Source of the DNA: a plasmid
Sequence record: NZ_CP090008.1
Strand: one strand, 5' to 3'
Length of the DNA: 64,000 nt
Position numbers and translations under genes: made by a program. The notes beneath the pieces were generated by a model. The model saw only the letters and a list, made by a program, of their open reading frames with translations, was not told the origin of the DNA and made no database searches. This document shows positions 543 to 59,049 of the stretch, one piece after another; position 1 is the first letter of the stretch, and each line of letters opens with the position of its first letter.

Positions 543-773
543 ATGAATGGGATAGGTTATATACTTAGGAGGTTACGGAAAGAAAAAGGGATTACACAGA
601 GAGTTATCTATACAAATCTTTGTAGTCGAAAGCAACTTTCTAGGATAGAAAATAATACATCTTTCCCATCAGTATATCTTTTATATCATATTTGCCAAAG
701 ATTAGAAGTGACAATAGATGAAGTTATCAAATTAACATTAGAAGGAGAAAGTAATGGCAATCAGCACAAGTGA
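543..773 (+). CDS. Small XRE-family helix-turn-helix transcriptional regulator (76 aa), first gene of cluster
   Basis: HTH_XRE signature (LRRLRKEKGITQRV...LSRIENN); overlaps start of next gene. Confidence 0.6.
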   Translation: MNGIGYILRRLRKEKGITQRVIYTNLCSRKQLSRIENNTSFPSVYLLYHICQRLEVTIDEVIKLTLEGESNGNQHK

Positions 774-1800
774 ATTAAAGTATGAATTACCGGTCGAATT
801 AGCTGCTCGACAACCTATAGAACTGACATCGAGTAGAAGGGATGGAACTAGATTAATAGTAGGTTTTAAAAACTCTCAAAAAATCATTGATGATGTTTTT
901 ACAAATTTTACTAACTATATAAATTCAGGAGACTTACTTATTTTAAATAATAGTAAAACAATTTCACCAATTTTTTATGCATATTCCGATAAATATGGAG
1001 AGGTGAAATTTCATATTAAGACTAAGACTGATTTAGGATATGTATCATATATCAGAATTAGAGAAGATTTAAAAGATAAAATTATTGGTGAGAACTTTAT
1101 TGTAACTGATGAAATAGAAGTATCTGTAAATAAACGAACTGAAGGCGATGAATTTTTGTGTAGTTTTAATTGTTCTGAAGAGGATTTGTATAACTATTTA
1201 TTAATTAATGGTGAGGCAGTGAAATCAATTTATACAAAGAAAAAATGGTCAATTGATTATTATCAAAATGAAGTTGCAAATAAATTAGGATCTTTTGAAA
1301 ACCCAGCAGCGAGTCGGCACTTTACTAATAAAATGTTAAATATTTTACGTGAAAAAGGGGTAAGAATCGCGTATATTACTTTAAATTGTGCTTCGGTTGA
1401 TACAAAAATTTTTGAGGATATTATAGAGAAACATGTTGTTTTTAAGGAATACTATGAGATCCCCGAAGAAACAGTAAGATTAATTCAAGAAACAAAATTA
1501 AACGGTAATAAGGTGTTTGCGGTTGGAACTACAGTTATTAGGACTTTAGAAAGCTGTAATTATGATAATTTCAGAATTACTTCCCCTTTAAAAAATTATA
1601 CTGATTTATATATTCATCCTGGACATAATTTTAAAGTAACAGATGCTTTAATTACAAATTTTCATGGATCAATGACTAGTAGACTTGCTCTTTCTGCAGC
1701 TGCAATTGGTGTGGATAATATTATGAATTTATACAAACATGCAATCGAAGAAAAATATTTATTTTATGAGTTTGGGGATGCGAATTTATTATTCATGTAG
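754..1800 (+). CDS. QueA-family protein (S-adenosylmethionine:tRNA ribosyltransferase-isomerase homolog), divergent, in non-tRNA-modification context
   Basis: Alignable along full length to QueA: YELPxELIA, GDLLxxNN, GNKVFAVGTTVIRTLES (cf. VGTTSVRSLES), ALITNFH, EEKYxFxxxGDA. Confidence 0.8.
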   Translation: MAISTSELKYELPVELAARQPIELTSSRRDGTRLIVGFKNSQKIIDDVFTNFTNYINSGDLLILNNSKTISPIFYAYSDKYGEVKFHIKTKTDLGYVSYIRIREDLKDKIIGENFIVTDEIEVSVNKRTEGDEFLCSFNCSEEDLYNYLLINGEAVKSIYTKKKWSIDYYQNEVANKLGSFENPAASRHFTNKMLNILREKGVRIAYITLNCASVDTKIFEDIIEKHVVFKEYYEIPEETVRLIQETKLNGNKVFAVGTTVIRTLESCNYDNFRITSPLKNYTDLYIHPGHNFKVTDALITNFHGSMTSRLALSAAAIGVDNIMNLYKHAIEEKYLFYEFGDANLLFM

Positions 1801-1831
1801 TTTAGTAAATAACTAGAAAGGGGGTGATGAT

Positions 1832-1906
1832 ATGAAGAAGTTGACATTGAAAGAACTGGTTGATAAAAATAATGATTTGCTCTCACGTTGCACAATCAAT
1901 AAATAA
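1832..1906 (+). CDS. Unannotated 24-aa peptide MKKLTLKELVDKNNDLLSRCTINK (candidate precursor/substrate peptide)
   Basis: ATG 8 nt after strong SD (GGGGGTGA); sits between QueA-like and PqqD-like genes; followed by hairpin 1925-1951. Confidence 0.5.
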   Translation: MKKLTLKELVDKNNDLLSRCTINK

Positions 1907-1972
1907 TTAACCACGGAAAAATCCAATGAAGAATGATATTATTTCTTCATTGGAGTTTATTTTGGAGGGCTT

Positions 1973-2239
1973 ATGCTTTATAAAGTTAATCGAGACGTAG
2001 AAATAACAGAAGAAAATGGATATCAAGTTATTCATAGATATTCAGATGATTCGTATTTTTCCTTAGAAAATGATACTTTGTTTATTTTATTGAGTTATAA
2101 TGGTTTAAATAAATTGCAAGATATTGCAAAAAGCTTTGCAAAATATAAAGGAATTTCTAATAACAAAGCTTTAGAATACGTAGAACAAATCCAAAAATAT
2201 TTAGTTTCAGAAGGAATAATTGTCATAGATGAGAACTAA
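1973..2239 (+). CDS. PqqD-like small protein (RiPP recognition element-type peptide chaperone), 88 aa
   Basis: Size and pattern typical of PqqD family (…LNKLQDIAKSF…YVEQIQKYLVSEGIIV); SD GGAGGG upstream. Confidence 0.55.
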   Translation: MLYKVNRDVEITEENGYQVIHRYSDDSYFSLENDTLFILLSYNGLNKLQDIAKSFAKYKGISNNKALEYVEQIQKYLVSEGIIVIDEN

Positions 2240-3095
2240 ATCTAAGTTATTTAATAATATAGCAGAAGATAATATAGACTCCCTTTATGTACAATTGTGT
2301 AATTTAATATATAAAAATGGTAAAGTTGTAATTTCGAGAGGCATGGAGGTAAAAGAATTAATTGGGGTTAACTTAATTTTAACTAATCCCAAAAGACGCT
2401 TTTTAGAAAATGCCAACAGAAAATTAAAACTATACTACGCTATTGGAGAATTCATATGGTATATGAGGGGGAGTAATAGTTTAGAGGAAATTCAGTATTA
2501 TGCCCCTAGCATGTCACAGTTTTCTGATGATGGTTCTATTCTTCAAGGAGCTTATGGACCTAAGATTGTAACTCAAATCGATAAATTGATTACACTGCTA
2601 AGACATGACAAGGGGACTCGTAGGGCAGTTTTACCTATTTATTCTGCGAGTGAATTAGGTAAAGATAGTAAAGATATCCCATGCACACTCACATTAGAGT
2701 TTTTGATTCGAGCTAATAAGCTTCATCTCATTGTCAATATGAGATCAAACGACATATTTTTGGGGCTTCCGTATGATATTTTTTCTTTCACAATGATTCA
2801 GGAATACATTGCAAATAAGATAGGTCTAAATTTAGGATATTATTATCATAATATCGGAAGCTTACATGTCTATAAGAAACATTTTGATAGAATAAAAGAA
2901 ATATCAACTATGAATATACATAAAACATCAGAATTCAATAACTCAAATTTAATCTTTAAAAATTTAAGTGATTTGTTAAACATTGAAAAATCAATTAGAA
3001 ACGGAAGTCCATACAATATGAGCAAGGAATTACTTAATAATTCGGATTTCAATAGAATAAAGATTGAACTAGAGAAATATAAGGATAGTAGGTGA
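2229..3095 (+). CDS. Thymidylate synthase (ThyA)/dNMP hydroxymethylase-family enzyme with catalytic Cys intact
   Basis: IPCTLTLEF…NMRSNDIFLGLPYDIFSFTMIQEYIA…SLHVY aligns to ThyA PCH…[20 protein letters not shown]…HLY. Confidence 0.8.
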   Translation: MRTKSKLFNNIAEDNIDSLYVQLCNLIYKNGKVVISRGMEVKELIGVNLILTNPKRRFLENANRKLKLYYAIGEFIWYMRGSNSLEEIQYYAPSMSQFSDDGSILQGAYGPKIVTQIDKLITLLRHDKGTRRAVLPIYSASELGKDSKDIPCTLTLEFLIRANKLHLIVNMRSNDIFLGLPYDIFSFTMIQEYIANKIGLNLGYYYHNIGSLHVYKKHFDRIKEISTMNIHKTSEFNNSNLIFKNLSDLLNIEKSIRNGSPYNMSKELLNNSDFNRIKIELEKYKDSR

Positions 3096-3098
3096 GAA

Positions 3099-3683
3099 AT
3101 GTCTATCGGAAAACTAATCTATATATGTGGAATTGATGGTTCTGGGAAAACAACATTAGCCAAGAATCTTTCTAATCATTTTGGTGATAAATCAATATTT
3201 TTGCCATTAAATAATTCAAAAAGATTCATTAATGAAATTGATAGTTTCTGTAAAGAGTATAATACAGACAGGTGGAGTATATTTTCAGAATATTTTAGGG
3301 GAAATATTTGGGCGTTAGAGCTAGTTTATTTTTGTGAAAATATTTTAAAACCCGCTCTAAAAAAGTACGAATATGTATTCATCGATAGATATTATATATG
3401 TAATGCTATATATTCTAATTTATTAGTCACTAATAAGTTGGTTAATAGACTGCATGAATTACTGATTAAACCAGACATGGTTTTTTATATCAATATTAAT
3501 CCAGAGATCGCTTTTGAAAGAATTTTAAAAAGGAATGAGCAAAAAACGCCGAAAGAAAGTTTGGACAATTTAAAATTAGCTTCTGATTTATATTCAAGAT
3601 ATCTTGAAGATAAAAGTTATTATGAATTAGACGGAGAGAAGTCAGAGAATCAAATTTTAAAGTCTGTATTACAAATTATTTAG
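3099..3683 (+). CDS. Thymidylate/dNMP kinase-like P-loop kinase
   Basis: Walker A GIDGSGKTT; DRY-type motif FIDRYYICNAIYS as in Tmk. Confidence 0.7.
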   Translation: MSIGKLIYICGIDGSGKTTLAKNLSNHFGDKSIFLPLNNSKRFINEIDSFCKEYNTDRWSIFSEYFRGNIWALELVYFCENILKPALKKYEYVFIDRYYICNAIYSNLLVTNKLVNRLHELLIKPDMVFYININPEIAFERILKRNEQKTPKESLDNLKLASDLYSRYLEDKSYYELDGEKSENQILKSVLQII

Positions 3684-3699
3684 AATTTAGGATTAAGAT

Positions 3700-4689
3700 A
3701 TGAAATTTGAAACAGTACTAGATTTTTATATATACTATTTGGAAATCCTTCTGAAAAGGGAAAAAAATCATACTAAAGTTGTCCCATTTTCGGAGATAGC
3801 TAATAAAGTCGAGGTTTTCAACAATAGTATTGAGATTGTTCAAGGAACTCATAGTAATATGCTATTTAGTAGATCTGAATTTAATTATAATGTAGTGCAT
3901 ATGCTATATTCTTTGAGTGGGAGAACAGATTCATATATATTAAAAAAATATAAAAGTTCATATTGGCGATATTCGAATGAGGGATTTTATGTCAATACAA
4001 TTGGGGAGCGGTTATATACTTTATATGGTAATCAAATTAAACGTTGTGTAAATTTTTTAAAAGAAAATATTTATACGTCAGATGCCGTTTGTTTTATGAA
4101 ATCTTTTGAAAATGAAAATATTGAATGTACTCTAAATCTTCATTTTTATTATAGAGATAATCGATTAAATTTGGAGTTATCATATAAAGGTTCTAGTTTA
4201 TTAGAGTATACTAACTCCGATCTATTTATTTATTCTTCTTTACTTTCATTAATGAGCCATTGGTTAGATGTGGAACCTGGAAGTTTATTTTTAAAATGTC
4301 ACTCGATTTTTATTTCAGAAAATGATCTAGAAAGAGCTAAGAAACTATTAGAAATTGGTAAATCGTTGAGAAATATTGGTATTTCAATGAATCATAGGTT
4401 TTCATCCAGTATTGAAACTTATCGTTCAGAATTTTCTGAAGCTATCAATAGAATAATTGCTTGGGATACTGTTGATATTACTCAGAGAGTTTCTGAGGAA
4501 TTAGAGTATATAAAAAAGTATTTTACTCCATATATTCAAGACTTGTTACTTATTCTTTTAGCGGATAGATTTCATCAAACTGATAGTGATTATAAAATAG
4601 TATTGAGTCAGCTCTCAGATAGGTCAATTGGGAAATTTAAGGAAACAATTGATAAAATACAATTTAATAAATTATTAGAGGTAATTTAA
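3700..4689 (+). CDS. Divergent ThyA-fold paralog (possible hydroxymethylase/methyltransferase or non-catalytic partner)
   Basis: IECTLNLHFYYRDNRLNLELSYKGSSLLEYTNSDLFIYSSLLSL resembles ThyA core (PCH…QRSxDxxLGxPFNIASY) but lacks the R-S-x-D phosphate motif. Confidence 0.4.
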   Translation: MKFETVLDFYIYYLEILLKREKNHTKVVPFSEIANKVEVFNNSIEIVQGTHSNMLFSRSEFNYNVVHMLYSLSGRTDSYILKKYKSSYWRYSNEGFYVNTIGERLYTLYGNQIKRCVNFLKENIYTSDAVCFMKSFENENIECTLNLHFYYRDNRLNLELSYKGSSLLEYTNSDLFIYSSLLSLMSHWLDVEPGSLFLKCHSIFISENDLERAKKLLEIGKSLRNIGISMNHRFSSSIETYRSEFSEAINRIIAWDTVDITQRVSEELEYIKKYFTPYIQDLLLILLADRFHQTDSDYKIVLSQLSDRSIGKFKETIDKIQFNKLLEVI

Positions 4690-4691
4690 AT

Positions 4692-4952
4692 TTGATAATT
4701 AAAAAGAGTCTTGCTGCTATACAACGTTCAGTATCAGGAAATGAATTTTTGTTAAATTTACTTACTGATAGGACTTTTCTCCTTAATGAAGTTTCTCTCT
4801 ATATTTGGAGTAATCTTGGAGAATGTAGTACTGAGGAAATAGCTGCAAATTTATCTAAAATGTATAATGAAAAAACCGAGATAATTCAAAATGATGTAGA
4901 TGAAGTTATTAATATTTTACAGGAAGAAGGGTTAATTGAAATTCTGAATTAA
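4692..4952 (+). CDS. Second PqqD-like small protein (RRE-type), 86 aa
   Basis: FLLNEVSLYIWSNLGECSTEEIAANL…DVDEVINILQEEGLIE is a textbook PqqD-family pattern. Confidence 0.65.
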   Translation: MIIKKSLAAIQRSVSGNEFLLNLLTDRTFLLNEVSLYIWSNLGECSTEEIAANLSKMYNEKTEIIQNDVDEVINILQEEGLIEILN

Positions 4953-4970: not shown

Positions 4971-5657
4971 ATGGCTGAAATTATTTATAGTATGATTGCT
5001 AATGAGATTTCAGAGCAATTGTCAGAGGATAATATTGTAATTTGGAAATCTGAGATGGATGGACTGGGGACCTCATTATCTGATATCGATGCATATTGTA
5101 TCTGCAAGGAAGAAAAAGTAATAAAAAGCTTTGTATATGAAGGGACACCGGTTGATATTGAATATGTGACTTCGGAAAGGCTAAAAGCTAAAATTAATAA
5201 AATTTATCAATACACTAATCATGGTGATATTTATAAAGGATTAGATGAAGATTTGAAATTATTTTACAGATTACAAAGAGGAGAGAAATCAGCTAAATTT
5301 TCATTGATTGGAGTTGAAGTTCCCACACTTGAGGAAATTTCTAAGATTGCAGCACAATATTATTATGAATTATTTTTAGGTCTGTATGAAGATGCTTATA
5401 AAATGTACCATGGGAAAAATAAATTAGATTCTTTTGTCCTTTCCCTAGAGACATTACAAATGTCTATTGCAACTTATTTAGCTAGGGTAGGGAAACCACA
5501 ATTTAAGAAAAAATGGCTATTTAAATATTTTAATATAGTAGCTAACAATTCCCTATATAAAGATTTAATTACACAATTAGAATCAACACAGGAATATGAT
5601 TTAATGGAATTCACAGAGAGTATACTAGTCAATTCAAAAAAGCTTCTAGAAATTTAG
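4971..5657 (+). CDS. Pol-beta superfamily nucleotidyltransferase (LinB/ANT-like)
   Basis: hG[GS]…DhDh motif: MDGLGTSLSDIDAYCI; helical C-terminal domain. Confidence 0.65.
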   Translation: MAEIIYSMIANEISEQLSEDNIVIWKSEMDGLGTSLSDIDAYCICKEEKVIKSFVYEGTPVDIEYVTSERLKAKINKIYQYTNHGDIYKGLDEDLKLFYRLQRGEKSAKFSLIGVEVPTLEEISKIAAQYYYELFLGLYEDAYKMYHGKNKLDSFVLSLETLQMSIATYLARVGKPQFKKKWLFKYFNIVANNSLYKDLITQLESTQEYDLMEFTESILVNSKKLLEI

Positions 5658-5679
5658 TATATTGAAAGGAGGTGAGATT

Positions 5680-5742
5680 ATGGTCTATAAAAAACCTATT
5701 GTTGAAGATATTAAATTAAGTGCCTCTGCATTACTTGTATAA
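5680..5742 (+). CDS. Unannotated 20-aa peptide MVYKKPIVEDIKLSASALLV (second candidate substrate/precursor peptide)
   Basis: Perfect SD AGGAGGTGA 7 nt upstream of ATG; followed by 12-bp perfect inverted repeat 5764-5775/5820-5831 plus T-run. Confidence 0.45.
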   Translation: MVYKKPIVEDIKLSASALLV

Positions 5743-5763
5743 TATCTTAGTATAAGTCGGAGA

Positions 5764-5831
5764 GTTGAACAGAATAATTATGTAGTTAATATGACTAACA
5801 GGAAGTATTACTACAAAAAATTCTGTTCAAC
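5764..5831 (+). terminator. Stem-loop (12-bp perfect arms GTTGAACAGAAT/ATTCTGTTCAAC) followed by T-rich tract; likely leaky terminator/attenuator after peptide gene
   Basis: Direct reading. Confidence 0.5.
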
Positions 5832-5857
5832 TTTCCATTTTTTATAGAGTAATAAAA

Positions 5858-6664
5858 ATGAGCAAAATTAGGTATATCATAATAAAGATACTATTACATC
5901 AATTTTACGGAATCAAAAATATAAAATTAATAAATTGTGTTAAAAATATGAATAAAGTTTATATTTTTGAAGATATCAACAAAAAGGTCAAAATGGTTTT
6001 AAAAGTAGAATCTGAAAGAAGAATTAATTCGATCAAGTACCAACATATATTTTCCAATTATGGGATATCGCCAAAAATAATTAAAACTAGAACAGGAAGA
6101 CAGTATATAAAGATTTATAGATTGGTAATATTTGTACAAGAGTATGTAACATCTAGTAAAAGAAAGGTCACTTCAACAGAGATTGTGGGATTTTTAAAAT
6201 ATTTTTACGGAAAAATGGATGAAATAAGAGAATATTTACCCGAAGTTTTGACTACTTATCCATTATATAAGCAAGGCGCATTAAGTAAATGGTTTTATGT
6301 AGTCCATGGTGATTTACGTCCACAAAATATTATCATTACCAGGGATAGTTTTAGCGTGATTGATTTTGAGTATTTAAGTCTAGGAATTCGAGAAACTGAA
6401 ATTCTCAAGTTAATTATAATAATTTGTAAATATCAAAGTAATTTGATTGAATCGCTATATTCTAAATTCTTAGAATCAGACGTAATAGAAATGCATATAG
6501 AGGAGGCGATAAGGGTTCTTTTGTATGATCTTCTTAAATCAAATTTTCCTGAAAAGGTCAAGAATAATATTCCAAAGAATTATTTTTTAGAAATAACTTC
6601 TGAAAGGGAGGCATTAATAAACTTTTGCCATACATATTTAAAAAGAAAGGAATCCCAAAAATGA
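5858..6664 (+). CDS. APH/choline-kinase-fold kinase (aminoglycoside phosphotransferase-like); true start may be internal (ATG 5948)
   Basis: Catalytic loop HGDLRPQNIII and IDFEY (DFE/DFG-like) motifs. Confidence 0.65.
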   Translation: MSKIRYIIIKILLHQFYGIKNIKLINCVKNMNKVYIFEDINKKVKMVLKVESERRINSIKYQHIFSNYGISPKIIKTRTGRQYIKIYRLVIFVQEYVTSSKRKVTSTEIVGFLKYFYGKMDEIREYLPEVLTTYPLYKQGALSKWFYVVHGDLRPQNIIITRDSFSVIDFEYLSLGIRETEILKLIIIICKYQSNLIESLYSKFLESDVIEMHIEEAIRVLLYDLLKSNFPEKVKNNIPKNYFLEITSEREALINFCHTYLKRKESQK

Positions 6665-7710
6665 TTTCAACTGAGATTGAGAAAAAATATCTACTTACAA
6701 AAGAAGAATTTCTATCCTTTAGTAGAGATTTTTTTAAAAGTGCAAAAATTCAAGAACAAACTAATTATTATTTTGATAGTTTAGATTTTTCACTATTAAA
6801 GAGAGGAATGACTCTTAGAATTCGAGAAAAATATGATAAATATATTTTAACATTAAAGAAAAAGAAATCAGTCAAAATAATTGTAGAATCGGAAGAAATT
6901 AATTTCGTAATTACACCGCAAGACTTTCAAGAGGCAATCTTAACTGGAGAATTTCCCCAAAATGTAAAGAAAGAACTAGACTCATTAATTCCCGAAAAGA
7001 AAATTTTTTATCTAGGTTTTCTAAAAACTAAAAGATATGTAATCGAAAAAAATTCTTTGATATATTGTTTAGATAAAAATAATTATTTTGGAAAGGAGGA
7101 TTTTGAATTAGAAATTGAAGGAACAGAGAAAGGACTAAAAGAAATTGAAATTGATATTTCCAAGAGCAAATCTAATAATGTTGGAAAATATGCTAGATTT
7201 ATTGATGAATTATTGAAAGGAAACGGTAATTATCTGATTAAAACTCAAGTGTCTGCAATTATTCTTAATAAAAGTAGCGATAAAGTTTGTCTTATTAAGA
7301 AGGATATTCCAACCTCAAGTATACATAATATGTGGCTTCCACCCGGTGGACATATCGATTTTGGAGAAAATTTAATAGATGCTGTCAAAAGAGAGGTCTA
7401 TGAAGAGACAGGGTTAGAAGTTACGGTTTCAAAATTATCTAGCATTGTATCGTTTCATCAAAAAAAGGCAGAGCAAGCTATTTGTTTCTTTTATGTCGCA
7501 GAATCCCAAAATATTAATGAAATAAATGTCACTGAGCCAGGCATTGAATGCAGGTGGTTTAATTTAAAAGATATACTAAGTGGAGATGATATAAATATGA
7601 CATCCTATCATAAGCTTATAATATCCGACTTGCAAGATAACAGGATTTTATATTTGAATTTAAAAAAATCTGATAATCAATATAATATTGAAAATATAGT
7701 TCATATTTAA
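6661..7710 (+). CDS. CYTH (triphosphate tunnel) - Nudix hydrolase fusion protein
   Basis: N-term EIEKKYLL (ExExK CYTH signature); C-term Nudix box GGHIDFGENLIDAVKREVYEETGLEV. Confidence 0.7.
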   Translation: MISTEIEKKYLLTKEEFLSFSRDFFKSAKIQEQTNYYFDSLDFSLLKRGMTLRIREKYDKYILTLKKKKSVKIIVESEEINFVITPQDFQEAILTGEFPQNVKKELDSLIPEKKIFYLGFLKTKRYVIEKNSLIYCLDKNNYFGKEDFELEIEGTEKGLKEIEIDISKSKSNNVGKYARFIDELLKGNGNYLIKTQVSAIILNKSSDKVCLIKKDIPTSSIHNMWLPPGGHIDFGENLIDAVKREVYEETGLEVTVSKLSSIVSFHQKKAEQAICFFYVAESQNINEINVTEPGIECRWFNLKDILSGDDINMTSYHKLIISDLQDNRILYLNLKKSDNQYNIENIVHI

Positions 7711-7894
7711 AAGATTAAAACTAGTTATATATAAAATCTAGGTATAACTGTTCCACTGAATTCCATAGATATAATTAGCTTCTTAAATGTAGGGCTATTT
7801 TATAGCTTGAATATACAATATAAGTGCACAATAAAAACTCATAAGATTTTCTAGTAAAATAGAATTGAACGAACTAGTTACGAAAGGAAATCTT

Positions 7895-8881
7895 ATGAGC
7901 TACCATCATTTTACTATAGATGAACGTGAAAGCATTCTCGTTTACCGTACGCATGACCTAAATTTTTCTCAAATTGCTAAATCACTTCATCGTCATTAGT
8001 CTAGCAGTAGTGGTGAGTGGCAACGACATCTTAAAGAAGGAAGCTATTCTCCAAGTCATGCATAGGAATCTTATCATATGGCTAAATCACACTGTGGGCG
8101 GAAACGTATGCTTGAAATAGATCACAATTTAAGCAATACCGTCAAACATCTATTTCTCGATTACCAATGGTCTCCCGAAGAAATAGAAGGTCGGTTGCGA
8201 TTAGAGTATGGAAAAACTGTTATTAGTTATCAAACAATCTATAGAGCCATTTACAGAGGGCATTTTGATGATAACTCACTATCTCATGGTGCTCGTGGTG
8301 TCATTCGAAAGCTCCGTCATCGTGGTAAAACACGTCATACAAAAGGTTATGTCGAAAATAGAGGGAAAATCTCTATATCTCATACAATTCACGAAAGACT
8401 AGAAGATGCTAATAACCGAACTAGAATAGGAGATTGGGAAGCCGATACTGTTGCAGGTAAAACTAGAAAAGCTTGTTTAGTGACTCTAACTGACCGTTAT
8501 TCTCGTTTTCTAAAAATCCAGAAGGTAGCTGTCAAGAAAAGCAAGTTGGTAATAGAAGCTATGGTAAAAATGTTAGAGCCCTTGACGAAGCATACAATAA
8601 CTCCTGATAGAGGGAAAGAATTCACGTATCATCAGAAATTGAGCGATCAATTGAACATTGAAGTCTATTTTCCTGACCCTCATGCTCCATGGCAACGAGG
8701 AACCAATGAGAACACGAAAGGATTACTTTGAGAGTATTTTCCAAAGGGTAGTGATCTAACATTGGTTGATGATCAGACTATTCAGCTGTGGGAGAACAAA
8801 CTTAATAATAGGCCACGAAAATGTCTTAACTGGAAAACACCTTATGAAGTATTCTATGGGGAAAGTATGCACTTAATTTGA
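7895..8881 (+). pseudogene. IS30-family transposase, inactivated (two in-frame stops near N-terminus, frameshift near C-terminus)
   Basis: MSYHHFTIDERESILVYRTHDLNFSQIAKSLHRH* …; DDE core …GDWEADTV…; C-terminal continues in another frame to 8881. Confidence 0.75.
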
Positions 8882-8953: not shown

Positions 8954-9745
8954 ATGCTACTAGCTGTAATAAGAAGAAACTGGCAGATGTATAAAAGATA
9001 TTTTCCAGTAACATTGTTTTTTAATAGGGGTTTGGATGCTGGTTTTACTCTATTAGGTTTGTGGTTAATAGCGAATTTTTTATTCGCAAATAACATTAAA
9101 GTTGGTAATGCTATAGAGTACTCAGATTACTTCAGTTATGCTGCAGTAGGATTGGTTTATTATAATGCATCAATTGCTATTCTGATGAATGTAGGGAGAG
9201 CATTAATAACAGAAGTTAGAGAAGGCACTCTTGAAAGTACATTAGTATCTCCTTTTAACATTGTCTATTATTACTTAGGAATCTTTTTAGAGCAGTTTGT
9301 AAGGACCTTTTTGGAATTTCTATTTTCTTATATAATTGCTATTTTGCTCGGTGCAGATTTACAACAAATTACATTACTGATTTTATTGCTTGGCTTCTTA
9401 TATGTTTCGATTTGCTCTTTTTCGATGGGGGTATTCCTATCAAATATAATGTTGTGGTTTAGGGATACATTCATTAGTCAAAATACAATTTTTCTGATAA
9501 TCTTCTTGGTCTCAGGCATTACCTTTCCAATAGAATTATTGCCAAAATTTTTAAGGGTGATTAGTAATTTTATACCGTTAACATATTCTATTAAGGCAAT
9601 AAGAACCTTATATTTGGAAACCCAGACGAGTATGATCAATCTTAGCTTTATACAAGGTTTACTACTTTCAATATTATACTTCTTGATAGGGATTCTGGTA
9701 TATAATAAGGTTGAGAAAAAAATTGTAAGTGATGTTTCATATTAA
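8954..9745 (+). CDS. ABC-2 type transporter permease
   Basis: 6-TM hydrophobic profile, 263 aa, translationally coupled to ATPase. Confidence 0.6.
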   Translation: MLLAVIRRNWQMYKRYFPVTLFFNRGLDAGFTLLGLWLIANFLFANNIKVGNAIEYSDYFSYAAVGLVYYNASIAILMNVGRALITEVREGTLESTLVSPFNIVYYYLGIFLEQFVRTFLEFLFSYIIAILLGADLQQITLLILLLGFLYVSICSFSMGVFLSNIMLWFRDTFISQNTIFLIIFLVSGITFPIELLPKFLRVISNFIPLTYSIKAIRTLYLETQTSMINLSFIQGLLLSILYFLIGILVYNKVEKKIVSDVSY

Positions 9746-10744
9746 GTGAAGGAGAGAAATAAAATGTATGAAGTATTCAATATTTCAAAAGATTATGTAA
9801 CAAAAAAGAGAATAGGATTGTTTAAACATAAAAAAGAAGTTAAAAAAGCTATACAAGATGTAAATTTATCAGTCCCTAGAGGTAAAATTATTGGTGTTTT
9901 AGGAGAAAATGGTGCAGGGAAAACAACTTTAATAAAGATGATGACAACACTTCTATCAAGTGATACTGGAAAAATTTTGATAGATGGAGTTGACATTAAT
10001 CAAAATGTAAAAAATACTCGAAAAAGGATCAACATCATTAGTGGAGGAGAAAAAAATCTCTATTGGAGATTGACTGCAGTTGAAAATTTACTCTATTTTG
10101 CTTCTCTGTACGGTCTTCCAAAGAAAGAGGCATTACCTAAGATAGATAATTTATTGAATGAATTAGGGCTTTGGGAAAGTAAGGATACTCCTGTAGAAAA
10201 ATTTTCAAAGGGAATGAAGCAACGCTTACAAATTGCTAAAGGACTAATCAATGATCCAGAATATTTATTTCTTGATGAACCTACACTAGGTCTAGATGTC
10301 AGTATTGCTTACGAGTTGAGAAAAAAATTAAAAGAGATAGCGGCTAAGCGGAATACAGGAATTTTGTTAACAACTCACTACATGGCTGAAGCAGATGAAT
10401 TATGTGATTATATTTATTTTTTAAAACATGGTAAAGTAATTGTGTCAGGTACCAAAACACAGGTTTTTGAACAATTACAGATGACACCAGAGCTTCATGT
10501 CATCCTTTCAGATAGGGATGATGAAAATTCTTCAAAGCTGGCTCAAGTTAGTCGTTTATTTCCATGTATAATTTTGGAAAAATTTGGTAGTAGTATATTG
10601 TTGAAATTCTCTCTTTCAGAATATAATGTGCAGGATATAATAAAAAGCCTATATAATAATCAAATTGAAATTAAGGAAATAAGATATAATGAGCCTACTC
10701 TTGAAAATGTTATTCTAAATTTAGGAGGAAAGAGCTTAAAATGA
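9746..10744 (+). CDS. ABC transporter ATP-binding protein
   Basis: Walker A GENGAGKTT, signature FSKGMKQRL, Walker B LFLDEPT. Confidence 0.85.
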   Translation: MKERNKMYEVFNISKDYVTKKRIGLFKHKKEVKKAIQDVNLSVPRGKIIGVLGENGAGKTTLIKMMTTLLSSDTGKILIDGVDINQNVKNTRKRINIISGGEKNLYWRLTAVENLLYFASLYGLPKKEALPKIDNLLNELGLWESKDTPVEKFSKGMKQRLQIAKGLINDPEYLFLDEPTLGLDVSIAYELRKKLKEIAAKRNTGILLTTHYMAEADELCDYIYFLKHGKVIVSGTKTQVFEQLQMTPELHVILSDRDDENSSKLAQVSRLFPCIILEKFGSSILLKFSLSEYNVQDIIKSLYNNQIEIKEIRYNEPTLENVILNLGGKSLK

Positions 10745-11535
10745 ATTCGATAATAGTTAGTACTTTTAAGAGTGAATTTAGAAGAACATTTTTAAATGAC
10801 AGTATTAATAAATTTTATTTTTTTTCAATGATACTTTGGCCAATTATTTCTCTAATTCAAATTTTTTACAATATGCAAGCCTTTCCAATTACGGATATAC
10901 AAATAGCATCTCTAAGATATGAAGACCAATTAATTTATTTTATATTTATTGGTTATTGTGTTTACATCATTTTTTCAAATGCTGTTCAGAGTGCATGGAG
11001 GCTTGGTGGAGAACGATATCAAGGAACTCTTAGTCAAATTTTTATTGCTCCAATTAAAAAAAATCTATGGCTTTATGCACGTACCTTATCACTTATTTTA
11101 AGTAATTCATGGTTTTTTATCACTATTTTTATTATTGGAAATTTTGTCTATTCTGATGCTTATGAATATATTCTTGCGTCCACTTTTATTTTAGTTGTTG
11201 CATCCTGGATTTGGGCAAGTTTCTTAGGTAGTATTTGTATCAGTTTGAGAGATGCAACGGTAGTTTATGTATTATTGGAGAGCTCTCAAAATACTTTTAG
11301 TGGTGCTAAAGTTCCATTATCAAAATCACCTCGATTAATAAAAGTTATAGGGAGTTTATTTCCCATTAGCTACACAATTATTTATCTAAGAGATATACTT
11401 CTTTATAAAGAGATTATAAGTATAAGTGCTATTTGGTGCTTATGCATAAATATCTTTGTTATTTTATTAACGAAGATAGTGTTAGAAGTTGGAGAAAGAC
11501 ACATGAAAAAAGTGGGCAGTTTTGATTTATTTTGA
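10741..11535 (+). CDS. ABC-2 type transporter permease (second)
   Basis: Multi-TM, overlaps ATPase stop (ATGA). Confidence 0.6.
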   Translation: MNSIIVSTFKSEFRRTFLNDSINKFYFFSMILWPIISLIQIFYNMQAFPITDIQIASLRYEDQLIYFIFIGYCVYIIFSNAVQSAWRLGGERYQGTLSQIFIAPIKKNLWLYARTLSLILSNSWFFITIFIIGNFVYSDAYEYILASTFILVVASWIWASFLGSICISLRDATVVYVLLESSQNTFSGAKVPLSKSPRLIKVIGSLFPISYTIIYLRDILLYKEIISISAIWCLCINIFVILLTKIVLEVGERHMKKVGSFDLF

Positions 11536-11766: not shown

Positions 11767-11976
11767 TTAATTTATACAGTCTACGATTTCTACCATATTT
11801 TCAACCTTGCAATCAAGTGCAATACATATTTTCAATAAAATATCAGTAGTGATATTTTCCCCTTTTCCTAATTTTGCTAGAGAAGAGGAGCTAATCCCTA
11901 CTTCTTGCCGGAGCTTTGTTTTGATTCAACCTTTATCAATGAGAAGTTTCCATAATTTATTATAACTAAACTTCAT
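11767..11976 (-). pseudogene. XRE-family HTH regulator with internal stop (MKFSYNKLWKLLIDKG*IKTKLRQEVGISSSSLAKLGKGENITTDILLKICIALDC…)
   Basis: Manual translation of minus strand. Confidence 0.6.
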
Positions 11977-12593
11977 CTGAGTTTTTTCCTTTGTTCCATG
12001 AAATACCGTAGAGTTCATTTCCGTTACTAGAGAGTCTCAGTACAGTATTTTCTGACAAGAGATGATTAGCTTCTGGATAATACGAGATAGCTTTATCAAA
12101 GGATAAAAAGACTTGTTTGTTCAATGATTTTGATTGGTCATATAGCTTCAACAGGGCTTCGGTTGCTTGGTAACTAATATTACTTAAGAGTAATGAATCA
12201 TGGGCAAGTGCTGGAAGATTAGTTAGATAGAGTATTGCTAAATCGTACAATATCATTCCTTTGAACTTAGTTCCTGTACCGTCGTCGTCAGGGGTATAGA
12301 AGGAATAGCTATTATAGGTTCTGAGGATAATTTGAGGAGCTTTGCGAATATCTGGATAAAGGAAATCATTGAATTCTCGCATTTTAGCATTGATTTTTCC
12401 TTCTAGCTCTATTAGAATGTGATCCAACGCTACTGTATTTTCAAAACTAATATATTCTGTTGGGTTTTCAATCCCATAAACAGATTGCAGTAGGTCTAGC
12501 CAAAAAGACTGGCTCTCTTGTCTTTCTCTACCACGGTTTTCCCAACGCTTAATAAAAGCCTTGGCTTGTTTTTTTCTGTTCTCTAGTGTTCAT
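11966..12593 (-). pseudogene. N-terminal fragment (frameshifted, truncated ~200 aa) of MmeI/PglX-like type IIG RM / BREX-type DNA methyltransferase
   Basis: …AFIKRWENRGRERQESQSFWLDLLQSVYGI…FENTVALDHILIELEGKI is the conserved N-terminus (PD-ExK region) of this family; stop after 16 codons then frame change; no MTase domain follows. Confidence 0.55.
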
Positions 12594-17294: not shown

Positions 17295-18605
17295 ATGGAT
17301 AAAAACAAACGTTCAATGATCCTAAAATCTGGAGCTTTTTTAACAGCCCTTGTAGCAACAGGTTTGGTTAATAATGGGGTATCAGCAGACGAAACTGCCG
17401 CACCAACTGGACCAACAGATAATGCTACTGTTGCGACTGGACACTCCGATACACTTCTTCCTCCCGCTTCATCAACACCAGCGACACCCGGTACCAATAC
17501 TACAGATGTCCCAACTGCTGAAGCACCTAAAGTTGACACTCCAAAAAATGAAGGTGTAACAACTGAGACACCTAAAGTAACTGACGGTTCTACTGGTACA
17601 GGTGTAGCTACACCTACGACTTCTGAAAATGCAAATACAACTGCTGAAACGTCTACAGTTACCTCTGAAGGAAGTGAAGGAAACTCTACTTCTGATACAA
17701 CTTCAACTGCATCAGAAACACCTACCCCTTCAGAGCACACAGTAACTGAAACTCCTACTAAGCCTAACGCTACGGATACTGCTAATACTAACCATAATAG
17801 TGAAAATAACACTAGCAGTAGCAGTGAAAGTTCAACAAATCCTGTTAATGATAAAGGGTCAACTGTTGCCACACCAACTCCAGCACCAACTGAAGGGAAT
17901 AACGCTTCAAGTTCTGAAGCACCTAGTGGCTCATCAACTTCAGCTGAATCTTCTTCAACAAGTTCAGAAACACCAAAAGTATCTGATGGAACATCTGGAA
18001 CAGGTGTAAGTTTGCCAAGTAGCGAAGGAACAACATCTTCTGAGAAATCATCAACCTCTCCAGAACTATCTGAAACTGCTATAAATACACCTCATATTCT
18101 TGACGGAACTAATGGAACTGGTGTCTCTACGCCATCTGAACATAAATCAGACAATCGTACAGAAGTAGCTTCAACTTCAGCAGCATCTTCAAACAAAGTA
18201 GTTGAGTCTCCTAAAACTGAAGAAACTCCTAAAGTTAGCGACACGAATGTTCAAGAAGCACCTAAACCAGGGGACGTTTCTCCTTCAACAAAACAAGTTG
18301 TACTTAATGTGACTCCTAGTCAACCAGTCGTCACAAATACTGGTTATAAAGTTGTCTCAACAAACAATAGTGATCTTATCGTACAAAACTTCGATGGTTC
18401 TGTAGCCTCAGTTCCAGCTTCACAGGCAGGAGGAGCAGTGAATGAGGATGGAACTGTCTCTGTTAAGACCGAGGCAGGAGAAATGGTAACACTTCCTGAA
18501 ACAGGGGAAGCTGGAACAAAACTCGTTACCTTTGGATTCTTGATTTTGGCAGCACTTGGTCTTCAACGTACAGCTGTAAAACAAGATAAATGGTACTCAA
18601 ACTAA
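17295..18605 (+). CDS. LPXTG cell-wall-anchored Ser/Thr-rich surface protein
   Basis: Signal peptide; LPETG + hydrophobic + basic tail; internal repeats TPKV(T/S)DG(S/T)(T/S)GTGV. Confidence 0.85.
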   Translation: MDKNKRSMILKSGAFLTALVATGLVNNGVSADETAAPTGPTDNATVATGHSDTLLPPASSTPATPGTNTTDVPTAEAPKVDTPKNEGVTTETPKVTDGSTGTGVATPTTSENANTTAETSTVTSEGSEGNSTSDTTSTASETPTPSEHTVTETPTKPNATDTANTNHNSENNTSSSSESSTNPVNDKGSTVATPTPAPTEGNNASSSEAPSGSSTSAESSSTSSETPKVSDGTSGTGVSLPSSEGTTSSEKSSTSPELSETAINTPHILDGTNGTGVSTPSEHKSDNRTEVASTSAASSNKVVESPKTEETPKVSDTNVQEAPKPGDVSPSTKQVVLNVTPSQPVVTNTGYKVVSTNNSDLIVQNFDGSVASVPASQAGGAVNEDGTVSVKTEAGEMVTLPETGEAGTKLVTFGFLILAALGLQRTAVKQDKWYSN

Positions 18606-57633: not shown

Positions 57634-57741
57634 TTATTTTCGATTGTTTCTTTTTTTCATAAAGTAAACAATCCCTATGACAATAACTCCTAAGACCAGT
57701 ACAGGTGCATAGAAGTCTAGTGTTCCAATAATCCCTTCCAT
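57634..57741 (-). CDS. Unannotated 35-aa single-TM peptide MEGIIGTLDFYAPVLVLGVIVIGIVYFMKKRNNRK
   Basis: SD GGAGG 8 nt upstream; between lanA1 and ABC ATPase. Confidence 0.5.
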   Translation of the reverse strand: MEGIIGTLDFYAPVLVLGVIVIGIVYFMKKRNNRK

Positions 57742-57772
57742 TTTATCCTCCTGTCAAAGAATAGAGGTGGTT

Positions 57773-58902: not shown

Positions 58903-59049
58903 AAGGTTGCCTCCTTCCTTCTTTTAGATGATCATCTTTACAGTAACTAGTATAAACTCTAGTATTGGCTAAGTAATGAGTAAATCGTGCAAGTTTCTTA
59001 TTTTCGAGAAAAATTTTTATAGTGCCCAAAAAAAAACCTGCCAAATTAA

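What the first reader, a model, noticed from the sequence alone, without database searches (positions are those of the whole stretch)
5680..5831. Second unannotated peptide (20 aa) with perfect SD and a 12-bp-arm stem-loop downstream
AGGAGGTGA-7nt-ATG encodes MVYKKPIVEDIKLSASALLV, placed between the nucleotidyltransferase and the APH-like kinase. It is followed by perfect inverted repeats GTTGAACAGAAT...ATTCTGTTCAAC and a T-tract. Two peptides and two PqqD-like proteins in one operon suggest two substrate/chaperone pairs, or one precursor plus one leader-like helper.
Basis: seen in the sequence. Interest (0 to 1): 0.6.

Follow-up and report, generated by a model that had tools for sequence, protein, structure and literature searches.

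The report
Short scaffold peptide gene with terminator hairpin
An unannotated 20-codon gene in a rare streptococcal operon is a real, conserved short peptide carrying the docking motif used by peptide-modifying enzyme chaperones; it sits beside such a chaperone and a nucleotidyltransferase and is followed by a transcription-damping hairpin, which points to an undescribed peptide-nucleotide natural-product pathway.

Summary
ATG 5680 to TAA 5742 encodes MVYKKPIVEDIKLSASALLV behind AGGAGG, and a 17-nt-arm branched stem-loop (-36 kcal/mol, z = -6.4) plus T6 follows. The ORF is a real gene. Three diverged alleles of the operon (neighbouring NTase 80% and 64% identical) keep the start, stop, length and SD. 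Codons 1-16 differ almost only synonymously, and the last four codons differ only non-synonymously. The upstream 228-aa protein has a KNTase/ANT(4') fold, and the gene before it is a PqqD-family RRE. A profile search found about 57 distant relatives of this NTase. In all nine relative loci I could inspect, a strong-SD 19-37-aa ORF with [Y/F]xxPx[L/I/V/A] lies beside the PqqD-NTase pair. This is the motif that lasso-type RREs bind. In 11 of 13 peptides the aromatic residue is exactly 18 residues from the C-terminus. Eight of ten loci have a stem-loop after the peptide gene, with unrelated sequences. Best reading: an RRE-docked short precursor or scaffold peptide, closest in logic to FzmZ/FzmT/FzmU of fosfazinomycin, here joined to QueA-like, ThyA-like, Tmk-like, APH-like and CYTH-Nudix enzymes and an ABC exporter. 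The hairpin is a leaky terminator or mRNA stabiliser. The chemistry is inferred, not shown.

The parts
5667..5672 (+). Shine-Dalgarno core AGGAGG of the peptide gene (extended match AAAGGAGGTGA, 5665-5675), 7 nt before the ATG
   Evidence: Read directly. Kept as GGAGGTGA or GGGGGTGA in alleles B and C. The peptide genes of distant loci have similar SDs.
5680..5742 (+). pep2: 20-aa ORF MVYKKPIVEDIKLSASALLV. Y3-K-K-P6-I-V8 fits the [Y/W]xxPx[L/V/I/F/A] RRE-docking motif. The last four residues vary between alleles.
   Evidence: Alleles: MAYKKPIVKDIKLSASSVL[I/V] (L001-3) and MAYKKPIVKDIKLSASTILR (L004, L005, L009-15). In codons 1-16, B vs C shows 5 synonymous and 0 non-synonymous differences. In codons 17-20, every allele pair shows 0 synonymous and 3 non-synonymous. 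Family alignment. The 18-residue spacing.
5759..5775 (+). 5' arm of the basal stem (GGAGAGTTGAACAGAAT)
   Evidence: The core GAGANTTGAACAGRAT is present once in each of the 15 close loci.
5781..5815 (+). Inner stem-loop that fills the 44-nt 'loop' of the big hairpin
   Evidence: MFE and centroid structures. The same inner stem appears in allele B. In allele C it is replaced by an insert about 70 nt longer.
5820..5836 (+). 3' arm of the basal stem (ATTCTGTTCAACTTTCC)
   Evidence: Allele B: GTTCTGTTCAAATCTCC. Allele C: ATCTACAGTTCACCTCTCT. Both still pair with the 5' arm.
5838..5843 (+). T6 tract one base after the stem; with the stem it forms an intrinsic-terminator-like unit
   Evidence: Allele B has ATTTTTT and allele C has TTTTTTT.
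4692..4952 (+). PqqD-family RiPP recognition element (86 aa), proposed docking partner of pep2
   Evidence: Pfam PqqD 2.4e-11. Best NCBIfam match is lasso_PqqD_Bac at 5e-5, below the curated cut-off. A PqqD gene abuts the NTase gene in every related locus.
4971..5657 (+). 228-aa nucleotidyltransferase with a KNTase/ANT(4')-like fold and a GLGTSLSDIDAY active-site motif
   Evidence: No Pfam or PDB sequence hit. AF2 pLDDT 79. Foldseek: 3c18, 6nmk, 6un8 and 1kny at TM 0.5-0.58. The G-x-G-x3-SD[ILV]D motif is conserved in the 61 profile hits.
5858..6664 (+). APH-like kinase (268 aa), first gene after the hairpin, with no good SD
   Evidence: Pfam APH 1.3e-5. In the distant relatives of the same cluster type this gene sits between the two ThyA-like genes.
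6661..7710 (+). CYTH + NUDIX fusion protein
   Evidence: Pfam CYTH 3e-21 and NUDIX 2e-15. The start is taken from the gene call in L006.
1832..1906 (+). pep1: 24-aa ORF MKKLTLKELVDKNNDLLSRCTINK, the other small peptide of the operon, with a conserved Cys near its end
   Evidence: Distant counterparts end in FSSCG, FSKCG, FSNCS or (FNKCR)x3.
1922..1954 (+). Stem-loop after pep1 (12-bp stem), followed by a T-rich tail and the SD of the next gene
   Evidence: -19.8 kcal/mol, z = -3.9.
1973..2239 (+). 88-aa protein, probably a divergent PqqD-like RRE paired with pep1
   Evidence: Weak evidence only. The syntenic gene in L016 is a Pfam PqqD hit.
543..4689 (+). Upstream part of the operon: XRE HTH regulator (543-773), QueA-like (754-1800), ThyA-like (2229-3095), Tmk-like (3099-3683) and a second, weaker ThyA-like (3700-4689)
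8954..11535 (+). ABC-2 type exporter genes (permease, ATPase, permease-like). In this window an IS30-like pseudogene (about 7890-8880) separates them from the operon.
   Evidence: The genes are contiguous, with no IS, in L001 and L009.

Best explanation
pep2 (5680-5742) is a translated, RRE-dependent short precursor or scaffold peptide of a RiPP-like pathway. It is not a regulatory uORF.

Proposed mechanism:
1. Its N-terminal Y3-x-x-P6-x-V8 docks onto the adjacent PqqD-family recognition element (4692-4952).
2. This places the C-terminal end of the peptide, a fixed 18 residues from the Tyr, at the adjacent KNTase-fold nucleotidyltransferase (4971-5657).
3. By analogy with FzmZ/FzmT/FzmU, the NTase joins a nucleotide or NTP-like phosphoryl donor to the C-terminal region of the peptide. 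The donor would be built by the operon's ThyA-like, Tmk-like, APH-like and QueA-like enzymes.
4. The ABC-2 transporter exports the conjugate. CYTH-Nudix handles triphosphate or nucleotide by-products, or provides self-protection.

The stem-loop plus T6 (5759-5843) is a leaky intrinsic terminator and 3'-end stabiliser. It would give more peptide mRNA than mRNA for the downstream genes, which appear to depend on read-through.

Shown here: the gene is real, its motif and length are conserved, it is linked to the PqqD-NTase pair, the NTase fold is as stated, and the hairpin is stable and recurs. Inferred: binding to the RRE, the site and nature of the modification, export, and terminator function.
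For: 1. Coding conservation. Start, stop, 20-codon length and SD are kept in three alleles whose NTases are 80% and 64% identical to the window's. Codons 1-16 show 5 synonymous and 0 non-synonymous differences between B and C. Codons 17-20 show 0 synonymous and 3 non-synonymous in every allele pair. All other frames contain stops in at least two of the three alleles.

2. Motif. YKKPIV fits [Y/W]xxPx[L/V/I/F/A], the motif recognised by discrete lasso-type RREs (PMC13381572). The adjacent PqqD protein scores best against the lasso PqqD chaperone models.

3. Family-wide linkage. A profile of the NTase finds 61 proteins. All nine distant loci retrievable (L016-L024) carry PqqD next to the NTase and a strong-SD 19-37-aa ORF with [YF]xxPx[LIVA] beside the pair. 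The surrounding enzymes differ: QueA/ThyA sets, radical SAM, B12-rSAM, glycosyltransferase or carbamoyltransferase.

4. Spacing. MAFFT aligns the peptides without internal gaps and flush at the C-terminus. The aromatic residue is 18 residues from the end in 11 of 13 peptides. These include the second motif of the 37-mer and a third peptide in Brevibacillus.

5. Precedent. The 21/22-mer FzmZ has an N-terminal YxxP, and the discrete RRE fzmT is always next to the NTase fzmU. Kinases make a triphosphate-like donor, FzmU ligates it to the peptide's C-terminal group, and no dedicated peptidase is needed (PMC13622209).

6. NTase fold and catalytic motif.

7. Hairpin. z = -6.4 and -6.9 in alleles A and B. 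The basal stem and U-run are kept in allele C despite a roughly 70-nt insert. A stem-loop directly follows the peptide gene in 8 of 10 loci, with unrelated sequences. pep1 has one too. No + strand promoter-like site lies between the hairpin and the kinase gene in the window or in allele C.
Against: - There is no direct evidence of translation, RRE binding or modification.
- The operon has no AS-like, ATP-grasp or ThiF-like enzyme that would activate a C-terminal carboxylate. It also has no leader peptidase; the Rce1-like CPBP gene found in relatives is missing from the streptococcal version.
- KNTase-type enzymes normally nucleotidylate hydroxyl groups, and no hydroxyl-bearing residue other than the motif Tyr is conserved across the family. 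Ser at position -7 occurs in 7 of 13 peptides. In FzmU's case the RRE was not strictly required in vitro.
- I could not test whether this NTase is homologous to FzmU, PsmN or LppN. It has no Pfam match, and PF14907 in particular is not hit.
- Allele C's full hairpin region is not significantly more stable than shuffles (z = -1.6).
- With a -36 kcal/mol stem the terminator might be efficient rather than leaky.
Confidence: 0.72

Rival explanations
1. pep2 is a cis-acting regulatory leader ORF. Ribosome position on it would control formation of the downstream terminator, and so the expression of the kinase, CYTH-Nudix and transporter genes, as in erm/cat or trp-type attenuation.
For: A short ORF with a strong SD lies 16 nt upstream of a terminator-like hairpin, and the downstream genes have no promoter of their own. 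In the 206-nt fold, codons 2-5 (UCUAUAAAAAA, 5684-5694) pair with the U-tract and the following bases (5838-5848). Pairing of the equivalent segments is possible by eye in alleles B and C (sequences).
Against: The amino-acid sequence, not just the nucleotide sequence, is under selection. The same peptide motif and length recur in distant loci whose DNA and hairpins are unrelated and whose downstream gene differs: kinase, Tmk, Rce1-like or Tmk-Nudix. In L020 the peptide lies upstream of the NTase. No alternative anti-terminator competing with the 5' arm is predicted. The A-run/U-run pairing follows from the Lys-Lys codons and any terminator tail.
Confidence: 0.08
2. pep2 is a secreted signalling pheromone precursor of the streptococcal SHP/ComS type. 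The variable hydrophobic C-terminus would be the mature, pherotype-specific signal.
For: It is a small streptococcal peptide with a charged N-terminal part and a variable hydrophobic C-terminal tail (ALLV, SVLI, SVLV, TILR). An XRE-type HTH regulator and an ABC transporter are in the operon.
Against: The regulator is a 76-aa HTH with no Rgg/ComR peptide-binding domain. The peptide family occurs in Brevibacillus, Oceanobacillus and GC-rich metagenomic contigs, always beside PqqD-NTase. It carries the RRE motif. It lacks the long hydrophobic core typical of SHPs.
Confidence: 0.05
3. pep2 is an in-trans leader-like activator or adaptor. It is never modified itself, but binds the RRE/NTase to switch on or organise enzymes that act on pep1 or on a small molecule.
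For: Its length equals a lasso-type leader, with 18 residues from Tyr to the end against about 17 from Tyr to the cleavage site in lasso leaders (my recollection of the lasso literature; the motif itself is cited). No side-chain nucleophile is conserved. The operon has a second, Cys-containing peptide with a more core-like, repeat-capable C-terminus.
Against: A fixed distance to a free C-terminus, together with allele-specific diversification of the last four residues, is more typical of a part that ends up in a product than of a pure adaptor. The FzmZ precedent shows that such 21/22-mers are substrates. Clusters such as L020, L022, L023 and L024 have the YxxP peptide but no pep1-like gene was noticed in them; this was not searched exhaustively.
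Confidence: 0.12
4. pep2 is a decayed remnant of a lasso-peptide precursor (leader only), left over from a lost lasso cluster.
For: It has a YxxP motif, the PqqD protein scores best against lasso B1 models, and NTase and kinase accessory genes are known from Bacillota lasso clusters.
Against: No lasso cyclase or B2 peptidase is present in any of the loci. Length and sequence are under purifying selection, and the same about 20-aa format recurs across distant lineages.
Confidence: 0.02

Closest known systems
FzmZ / FzmT / FzmU of fosfazinomycin biosynthesis (Cha et al., bioRxiv 2026, PMC13622209)
   Same: Both have a very short ribosomal peptide (21/22 aa against 20 aa here) with an N-terminal YxxP motif that ORF finders miss. 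In both, a discrete PF05402 RRE gene lies directly beside a nucleotidyltransferase gene, kinases in the cluster make a phosphorylated donor, no dedicated leader peptidase is present, and the logic is that of a Trojan-horse-type small product.
   Different: This operon has no asparagine-synthetase-like FzmA, no PepM or phosphonate genes, no hydrazine genes and no ATP-grasp kinase. Instead it has QueA-like, two ThyA-like, Tmk-like, APH-like and CYTH-Nudix genes. The host is a low-GC Streptococcus rather than Streptomyces. The C-terminal residues vary (V, I, R) rather than being a fixed VR. Sequence homology of the NTases could not be tested.
Linear polyphosphorylated peptides (LPP) and paeninodin/pseudomycoidin-type lasso clusters of Bacillota (PMC13381572; PMC6993621)
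   Same: Both have a discrete lasso-type RRE that recognises [Y/W]xxPx[L/V/I/F/A], a kinase and an NTP transferase as tailoring genes, an ABC exporter, and a Bacillota host.
   Different: In those systems the kinase is HprK-like, not APH-like. Their precursors are 35-200 aa with a separate core. A leader peptidase (B2 or SipW-like SpI) and, for lasso peptides, a cyclase are present; none is found here. This NTase does not match any Pfam family.
Microcin C-type peptide-nucleotide antibiotics
   Same: Both involve a very short ribosomal peptide, a proposed nucleotide attached at its C-terminal end, an exporter, and nucleotide-modifying accessory enzymes. This comparison rests on my own knowledge of the McC literature.
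   Different: McC uses a ThiF/E1-like MccB and an obligatory C-terminal Asn, and has no RRE. This operon has no ThiF-like gene, the C-terminal residue varies, and the transferase has a Pol-beta/KNTase fold.
Precursor-gene terminator/attenuator hairpins of lantibiotic and other RiPP operons (for example after nisA)
   Same: In both, a stable stem-loop with a U-run lies immediately after the precursor gene and ahead of the downstream biosynthetic or transport genes, which have no evident promoter of their own. This rests on my own knowledge.
   Different: This stem is unusually long (17-bp base plus a branched inner stem, 78 nt, -36 kcal/mol). That also makes it a plausible RNase III substrate. 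No transcript data are available.

Membership tests
RRE-dependent RiPP precursor/scaffold peptide with a YxxP-type recognition sequence | Peptide carries [Y/W]xxPx[L/V/I/F/A] near its N-terminus | tested here: met
   Y3-K-K-P6-I-V8 in all three alleles. [YF]xxPx[LIVA] is present in all 13 family peptides. Motif definition from PMC13381572.
RRE-dependent RiPP precursor/scaffold peptide with a YxxP-type recognition sequence | A PqqD-family RRE is encoded in the same cluster | tested here: met
   The 86-aa protein at 4692-4952 hits Pfam PqqD at 2.4e-11. A PqqD gene is adjacent to the NTase in every related locus.
RRE-dependent RiPP precursor/scaffold peptide with a YxxP-type recognition sequence | Physical binding of the peptide to the RRE and post-translational modification | not testable with these tools
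No multimer predictor or experimental data were available.
RRE-dependent RiPP precursor/scaffold peptide with a YxxP-type recognition sequence | Conserved recognition part plus a variable part, under selection as a coding sequence | tested here: met
   The synonymous-only versus non-synonymous-only split between codons 1-16 and 17-20.
Fosfazinomycin-type (fzm) pathway | AS-like FzmA with a fused RRE, PepM/phosphonate genes and hydrazine genes | tested here: not met
   None of these domains is found in the operon or in the related loci.
Fosfazinomycin-type (fzm) pathway | Adjacent discrete RRE + NTase gene pair and a roughly 21-aa YxxP peptide | tested here: met
   Gene order PqqD-NTase-pep2, compared. 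Homology of the NTase to FzmU was not tested because no FzmU sequence is held.
Lasso peptide cluster | Asn-synthetase-like lasso cyclase and B2 transglutaminase-like peptidase; precursor with a core of about 15-25 aa after a Thr(-2) leader end | tested here: not met
   No such genes are present. The peptide ends 18 residues after the Tyr.
LPP (linear polyphosphorylated peptide) cluster | HprK-like kinase, SipW-like signal peptidase I and 35-200-aa precursors with YxxPxVLxHQxIxFETxxS | tested here: not met
   The kinase is APH-like, no SpI is present, and the peptide is 20 aa and matches only the YxxPxV part.
Intrinsic (factor-independent) terminator | Stable GC-closed stem immediately followed by a U-run | tested here: met
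   The stem closes with G-C, G-C pairs, then A and U6. The same holds in alleles B and C.
Intrinsic (factor-independent) terminator | Short loop (3-8 nt) and a stem of about 5-14 bp, as in the canonical consensus | tested here: not met
   The scanner finds no site. The element is a 78-nt branched hairpin.
Intrinsic (factor-independent) terminator | Transcript 3' ends or a coverage drop at the U-run | not testable with these tools
   No RNA-seq or term-seq data are available.
Known anti-phage defence systems | Match of the operon's proteins to a PADLOC system | tested here: not met
   Only generic P-loop and Nudix hits to candidate models were found.

The most novel reading that the evidence does not exclude
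The PqqD-NTase-short YxxP peptide triad is a widespread, undescribed 'molecular ruler' module. The RRE would hold the peptide so that its C-terminal residue, exactly 18 residues from the Tyr, receives a modified nucleotide. In the streptococcal and bacillus clusters that nucleotide would be a pyrimidine remodelled by two ThyA-like enzymes, a Tmk-like and an APH-like kinase and a QueA-like SAM ribosyltransferase-isomerase. After proteolysis of the scaffold, the product would be an aminoacyl- or peptidyl-nucleotide Trojan-horse antibiotic whose target specificity is set by the variable last residues. This would be a new RiPP-nucleotide hybrid class and the first use of QueA-type chemistry outside tRNA.
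Probability: 0.25. Interest if true: 0.9.

Novelty: new variant of a known kind. Interest (0 to 1): 0.72.

Why it matters
Peptide genes of about 20 codons are invisible to gene callers and to RiPP miners that start at 30 aa. The fosfazinomycin study reports this same problem (PMC13622209).

This work shows that such a peptide is the conserved third member of a PqqD-NTase module. The module occurs in dozens of uncharacterised clusters across Bacillota and in GC-rich metagenomic contigs, and it carries a fixed 18-residue spacing that makes a testable prediction about where the chemistry happens.

The streptococcal version sits in commensals and opportunists of the human mouth (S. mitis, S. intermedius). 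It combines the module with nucleotide-remodelling enzymes (QueA-like, ThyA-like) for which I found no report in ribosomal-peptide pathways. It could therefore encode a new peptide-nucleotide antimicrobial relevant to competition in the oral microbiome. It also gives genome miners a simple search rule: PqqD next to this NTase family, plus [YF]xxP 18 residues from a stop codon.

Tried and rejected
- Word-indexed homologue searches with the NTase, the PqqD protein and the kinase returned only the three alleles of this same operon. They gave no outgroup. Only the exhaustive profile search reached distant relatives.
- No match to the 7.3-kb operon in plasmids. No match to the peptide pattern or the NTase in viral contigs.
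- No Rfam family covers the hairpin. The hairpin is not a repeat.
- PADLOC gives no defence-system assignment. I considered a phage-type DNA hypermodification or defence island because the ThyA-like protein matches phage PHROG 5131 at 2e-55. I set this aside because of the two RREs, the two conserved peptides and the exporter.
The afdb50 fold library was unavailable.
- The single-sequence AF2 model of the 88-aa protein was poor (pLDDT 53). Its PqqD top hit (E = 0.17) is only suggestive.
- I first considered phosphorylation of pep2 Ser14/Ser16 by the adjacent APH-like kinase, by analogy with PsmK, LppK or class V LanK. I downgraded this. In the distant clusters of the same type the kinase sits between the ThyA-like genes, and the Ser residues are not conserved.
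- A promoter inside the hairpin (TTGAAC-16 nt-TAATAT) scores only 8 of 12 by my own reading, and I did not find it in allele C (sequence).
- Literature searches for RiPP+QueA+PqqD, RiPP+queuosine, PqqD+CYTH and RiPP+NTase+CPBP found nothing relevant.
- The FzmU and FzmZ sequences were not obtainable.
Full report
**1. Observation**

- AGGAGG lies at 5667-5672 and is followed by 7 nt before the ATG.
- The ATG is at 5680 and the TAA at 5740-5742. The product is MVYKKPIVEDIKLSASALLV.
- The 12-nt arms are exact but are part of 17-nt arms, 5759-5775 and 5820-5836.
- The intervening 44 nt form an inner stem. The element is therefore a 78-nt branched hairpin of -36 kcal/mol (shuffles -15.5 +/- 3.2; z = -6.4), followed by A and T6 (5838-5843).

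A perfect AGGAGG-spacer-ATG is rare in this window: 7 start codons against about 1 expected. The hairpin arm is unique in the window, occurs once per related locus at the same place, and matches no Rfam family.

**2. Context**

The ORF lies in a 15-gene, same-strand operon, in this order:
- XRE HTH regulator
- QueA-like protein (below the equivalog cut-off)
- a 24-aa peptide (pep1, 1832-1906) with its own stem-loop
- an 88-aa protein
- ThyA-like protein (best match is a phage thymidylate-synthase PHROG at 2e-55)
- Tmk-like protein
- a second, weaker ThyA-like protein
- an 86-aa PqqD-family RRE (best NCBIfam match is the lasso PqqD chaperone of Bacilli, below cut-off)
- a 228-aa protein
- pep2
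- APH-like kinase
- CYTH-Nudix fusion
- three ABC-2 transporter genes, preceded in this window by an IS30-like pseudogene

The 228-aa protein has no Pfam or PDB sequence match. Its AF2 model (pLDDT 79) matches the NTase-like protein 3c18 and kanamycin nucleotidyltransferase/ANT(4') at TM 0.5-0.58. It carries the GLGTSLSDIDAY motif.

**3. Is the ORF a gene?**

The operon is very rare. Word-indexed searches of 5.8 billion proteins with the NTase, the PqqD protein and the kinase find only three alleles:
- A is the window.
- B includes a kinase that NCBI names as S. intermedius.
- C is S. mitis OMI892 and B_009152_10, plus Streptococcus and Gemella MAGs.

In all 15 retrieved loci the small ORF keeps its SD, ATG, 20 codons and stop. 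In codons 1-16, B and C differ at five codons, all synonymous. In codons 17-20, every allele pair differs at three codons, all non-synonymous: ALLV, SVLI/SVLV and TILR. pep1 shows the same split, with codons 1-10 having 5 synonymous and 0 non-synonymous differences and codons 11-24 having 1 and 8. The other frames contain stops in at least two of the three alleles. This pattern of a conserved recognition part and a diversifying tail is what RiPP precursors show. It is not what a non-coding spacer shows.

**4. The wider family**

This was the decisive step. An exhaustive profile search with the three NTases found 61 proteins at E <= 1e-3. About 57 of them are distant relatives of roughly 250 aa with the same G-x-G...SD[ILV]D[ILV]Y motif. 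I could retrieve genomic context for nine.
- Five have the same cluster type as the window. These are L016 (Brevibacillus panacihumi), L017, L018, L019 and L021 (Oceanobacillus luteolus). The shared content is QueA-like, small ORF, PqqD-like, ThyA-like, APH-like, ThyA-like, Tmk, PqqD, NTase, small ORF, CYTH and Nudix, with transporter genes visible in four of the five. An Rce1-like CPBP protease usually follows the second peptide.
- Four have quite different enzyme sets: carbamoyltransferase; two radical SAM enzymes with a glycosyltransferase; three B12-radical SAM enzymes with a nucleoside phosphorylase; and a GT-CYTH fusion with a B12-rSAM enzyme. All four keep the PqqD-NTase pair.

In every one of the nine, a strong-SD ORF of 19-37 aa lies directly beside the pair:
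- MKKYKKPSIKVLRINAACLVT
- MNKYVSPELKALKISAAKLVA
- MFRTERFYTKPMIAPLKISAAAILV
- MKVFIKPMINPVKMSSAMVIL
- MKNKKVYTKPLLVKIETPMAAWEV
- MKKTYTSPTAKNVKTRKALVSS
- MKKYSKPTIKLVKIPSAAALEA
- MKKFVAPKATEISLPKAACEVSAW
- MKEYKKPKLILVKKINDIKYEKPLLKQTKMPVATMLI

Brevibacillus also has MYKAPKLKSVKLLAGMENA in front of a third PqqD gene. MAFFT aligns all of them without internal gaps on [YF]xxP and flush at the C-terminus. The aromatic residue is exactly 18 residues from the end in 11 of 13 peptides, 19 in one and 21 in one. No Ser, Thr, Cys or Lys position is conserved across the family; Ser at -7 occurs in 7 of 13.

**5. What it is and how it probably works**

[Y/W]xxPx[L/V/I/F/A] is the recognition sequence of discrete lasso-type RREs (PMC13381572). 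The closest described system is fosfazinomycin (PMC13622209):
- It uses a 21/22-mer (FzmZ) with an N-terminal YxxP that automated ORF finders had missed.
- The discrete RRE (fzmT) is always next to a nucleotidyltransferase (fzmU).
- Two kinases make a triphosphate-like donor.
- FzmU ligates that donor to the modified C-terminus of the peptide.
- General aminopeptidases release the small product.

I therefore read pep2 as an RRE-docked short precursor or scaffold peptide. Its C-terminal end is presented to the adjacent NTase at a fixed distance from the docking motif. The remaining enzymes (ThyA-like x2, Tmk-like, APH-like, QueA-like) most plausibly build a modified nucleotide donor. CYTH-Nudix would handle triphosphate or nucleotide by-products or protect the producer. 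The ABC-2 system would export the product.

Status of the steps:
- Shown: gene reality, motif, linkage, fold and spacing.
- Inferred: binding, modification site, chemistry and export.

The adjacent kinase is probably not a pep2 kinase. In the distant clusters of the same type it sits between the two ThyA-like genes, and the Ser residues are not conserved.

**6. The hairpin**

Alleles A and B fold alike (z = -6.4 and -6.9). Allele C has a roughly 70-nt insert in the loop but keeps the basal stem and a U7 run. In 8 of 10 family loci a stem-loop, usually with a T-run, directly follows the peptide gene although the sequences are unrelated. pep1 is also followed by one (also visible in L021). No + strand promoter-like site lies between the hairpin and the SD-poor kinase start in allele A or allele C.

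The most economical reading is a leaky intrinsic terminator and 3'-end stabiliser that raises the ratio of precursor mRNA to enzyme mRNA, as I recall for lantibiotic precursor genes. Its length also makes it a possible RNase III site. It fails the canonical short-loop consensus, and no transcript data exist, so this part remains inference (about 0.6).

**7. Rivals**

- Attenuation-type regulatory uORF. This is disfavoured because selection acts on the amino-acid sequence, because the peptide motif persists where DNA, hairpin and downstream gene all differ, and because no anti-terminator alternative is predicted.
- SHP/ComS-type pheromone. This is disfavoured by the lack of an Rgg/ComR-type regulator and by the occurrence of the family outside streptococci.
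- Unmodified leader-like adaptor. This remains possible (about 0.12).
- Decayed lasso precursor. This is excluded by the absence of cyclase and B2 genes everywhere and by purifying selection.
- Known defence system. None matches.

**8. Novelty and verdict**

I found no paper that links PqqD or RRE proteins with QueA-like, ThyA-like or CYTH proteins. The peptide is a new variant of a kind that has only just been recognised, namely very short YxxP scaffold peptides served by an RRE-NTase pair. It sits in a cluster whose enzyme set is undescribed for ribosomal peptides.

The second 'PqqD-like' protein (88 aa) is only weakly supported.

Interest is 0.72. The reasons are an invisible gene that is real, a family-wide 18-residue ruler, and a testable route to a possible peptide-nucleotide product in oral streptococci.

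Noticed in passing
window 1832-1954: The 'first' peptide, pep1 (MKKLTLKELVDKNNDLLSRCTINK), is also conserved, with a synonymous-only N-terminal half and a variable C-terminal half. Across distant clusters its counterparts share a Cys-centred C-terminal motif: LSRC, LACC, FSSCG, FSKCG and FSNCS. In Brevibacillus the motif occurs as three tandem FNKCR/FSKCR repeats behind a YECPEL motif. A 12-bp stem-loop follows pep1.
   Followed up: partly
window 7890-8880: An IS30-family transposase pseudogene, with in-frame stops and HTH_32 and rve domains, is inserted between the CYTH-Nudix gene and the ABC-2 transporter genes. It is absent from alleles B and C. It may uncouple the exporter from the operon in this strain.
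   Followed up: partly
window 5684-5694 with 5838-5848: In the 206-nt fold, codons 2-5 of pep2 (UCUAUAAAAAA) pair with the terminator U-tract and the next bases (UUUUUUAUAGA), enclosing the ORF and the hairpin. Pairing of the equivalent segments is possible by eye in alleles B and C, with G.U pairs. It may be a trivial A-run/U-run match, or a structure specific to read-through transcripts.
   Followed up: partly
L016-L024 (for example L017 9185-9694, L021 9852-10538, L024 10025-10768): In most distant relatives an Rce1-like CPBP (CAAX-protease family) gene directly follows the short peptide. The peptides end in x-aliphatic-aliphatic-X tails such as CLVT, KLVA, AILV and MVIL, which resemble a CaaX box. 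The streptococcal operons lack this protease gene.
   Followed up: no
L020, L022, L023, L024: The PqqD-NTase-short YxxP peptide triad also occurs with unrelated enzyme sets: radical SAM, B12-radical SAM, glycosyltransferase-CYTH fusion, carbamoyltransferase and nucleoside phosphorylase. CYTH, Nudix and Tmk-like genes recur with it. This suggests a general nucleotide-linked scaffold module.
   Followed up: partly
window 754-1800: The QueA homologue scores 225 bits against an equivalog cut-off of 324, so it is a divergent paralogue and not the housekeeping tRNA enzyme. It also matches an unknown-function PHROG (phrog_28663, 4e-43). It is conserved at the head of all clusters of this type, immediately before pep1.
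   Followed up: no
window 59028-59168 (-) and 63207-63391 (-): Two Rfam hits above gathering score to Listeria sRNA families rli38 (70.6 bits) and rli28 (60.3 bits).
   Followed up: no
window 18428-18489 (+) and 57634-57752 (-): Two further perfect AGGAGG-spacer-ATG sites head very short ORFs of 15 aa and 35 aa. They might be other unannotated small genes.
   Followed up: no
window about 250-293 and 123-165 / 309-341: A 12-nt unit (TCTTATCTCTAT) is repeated three times upstream of the operon. Terminator-like hairpins flank it.
   Followed up: no
window 11966-12427 (-); L001 16055-19245: The island is bordered by DUF2326 (truncated in the window), and in allele B also by MC7 and CTD11 conflict-system domain genes and a ToxN-like gene. 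The operon therefore sits in a variable defence or accessory region.
   Followed up: no
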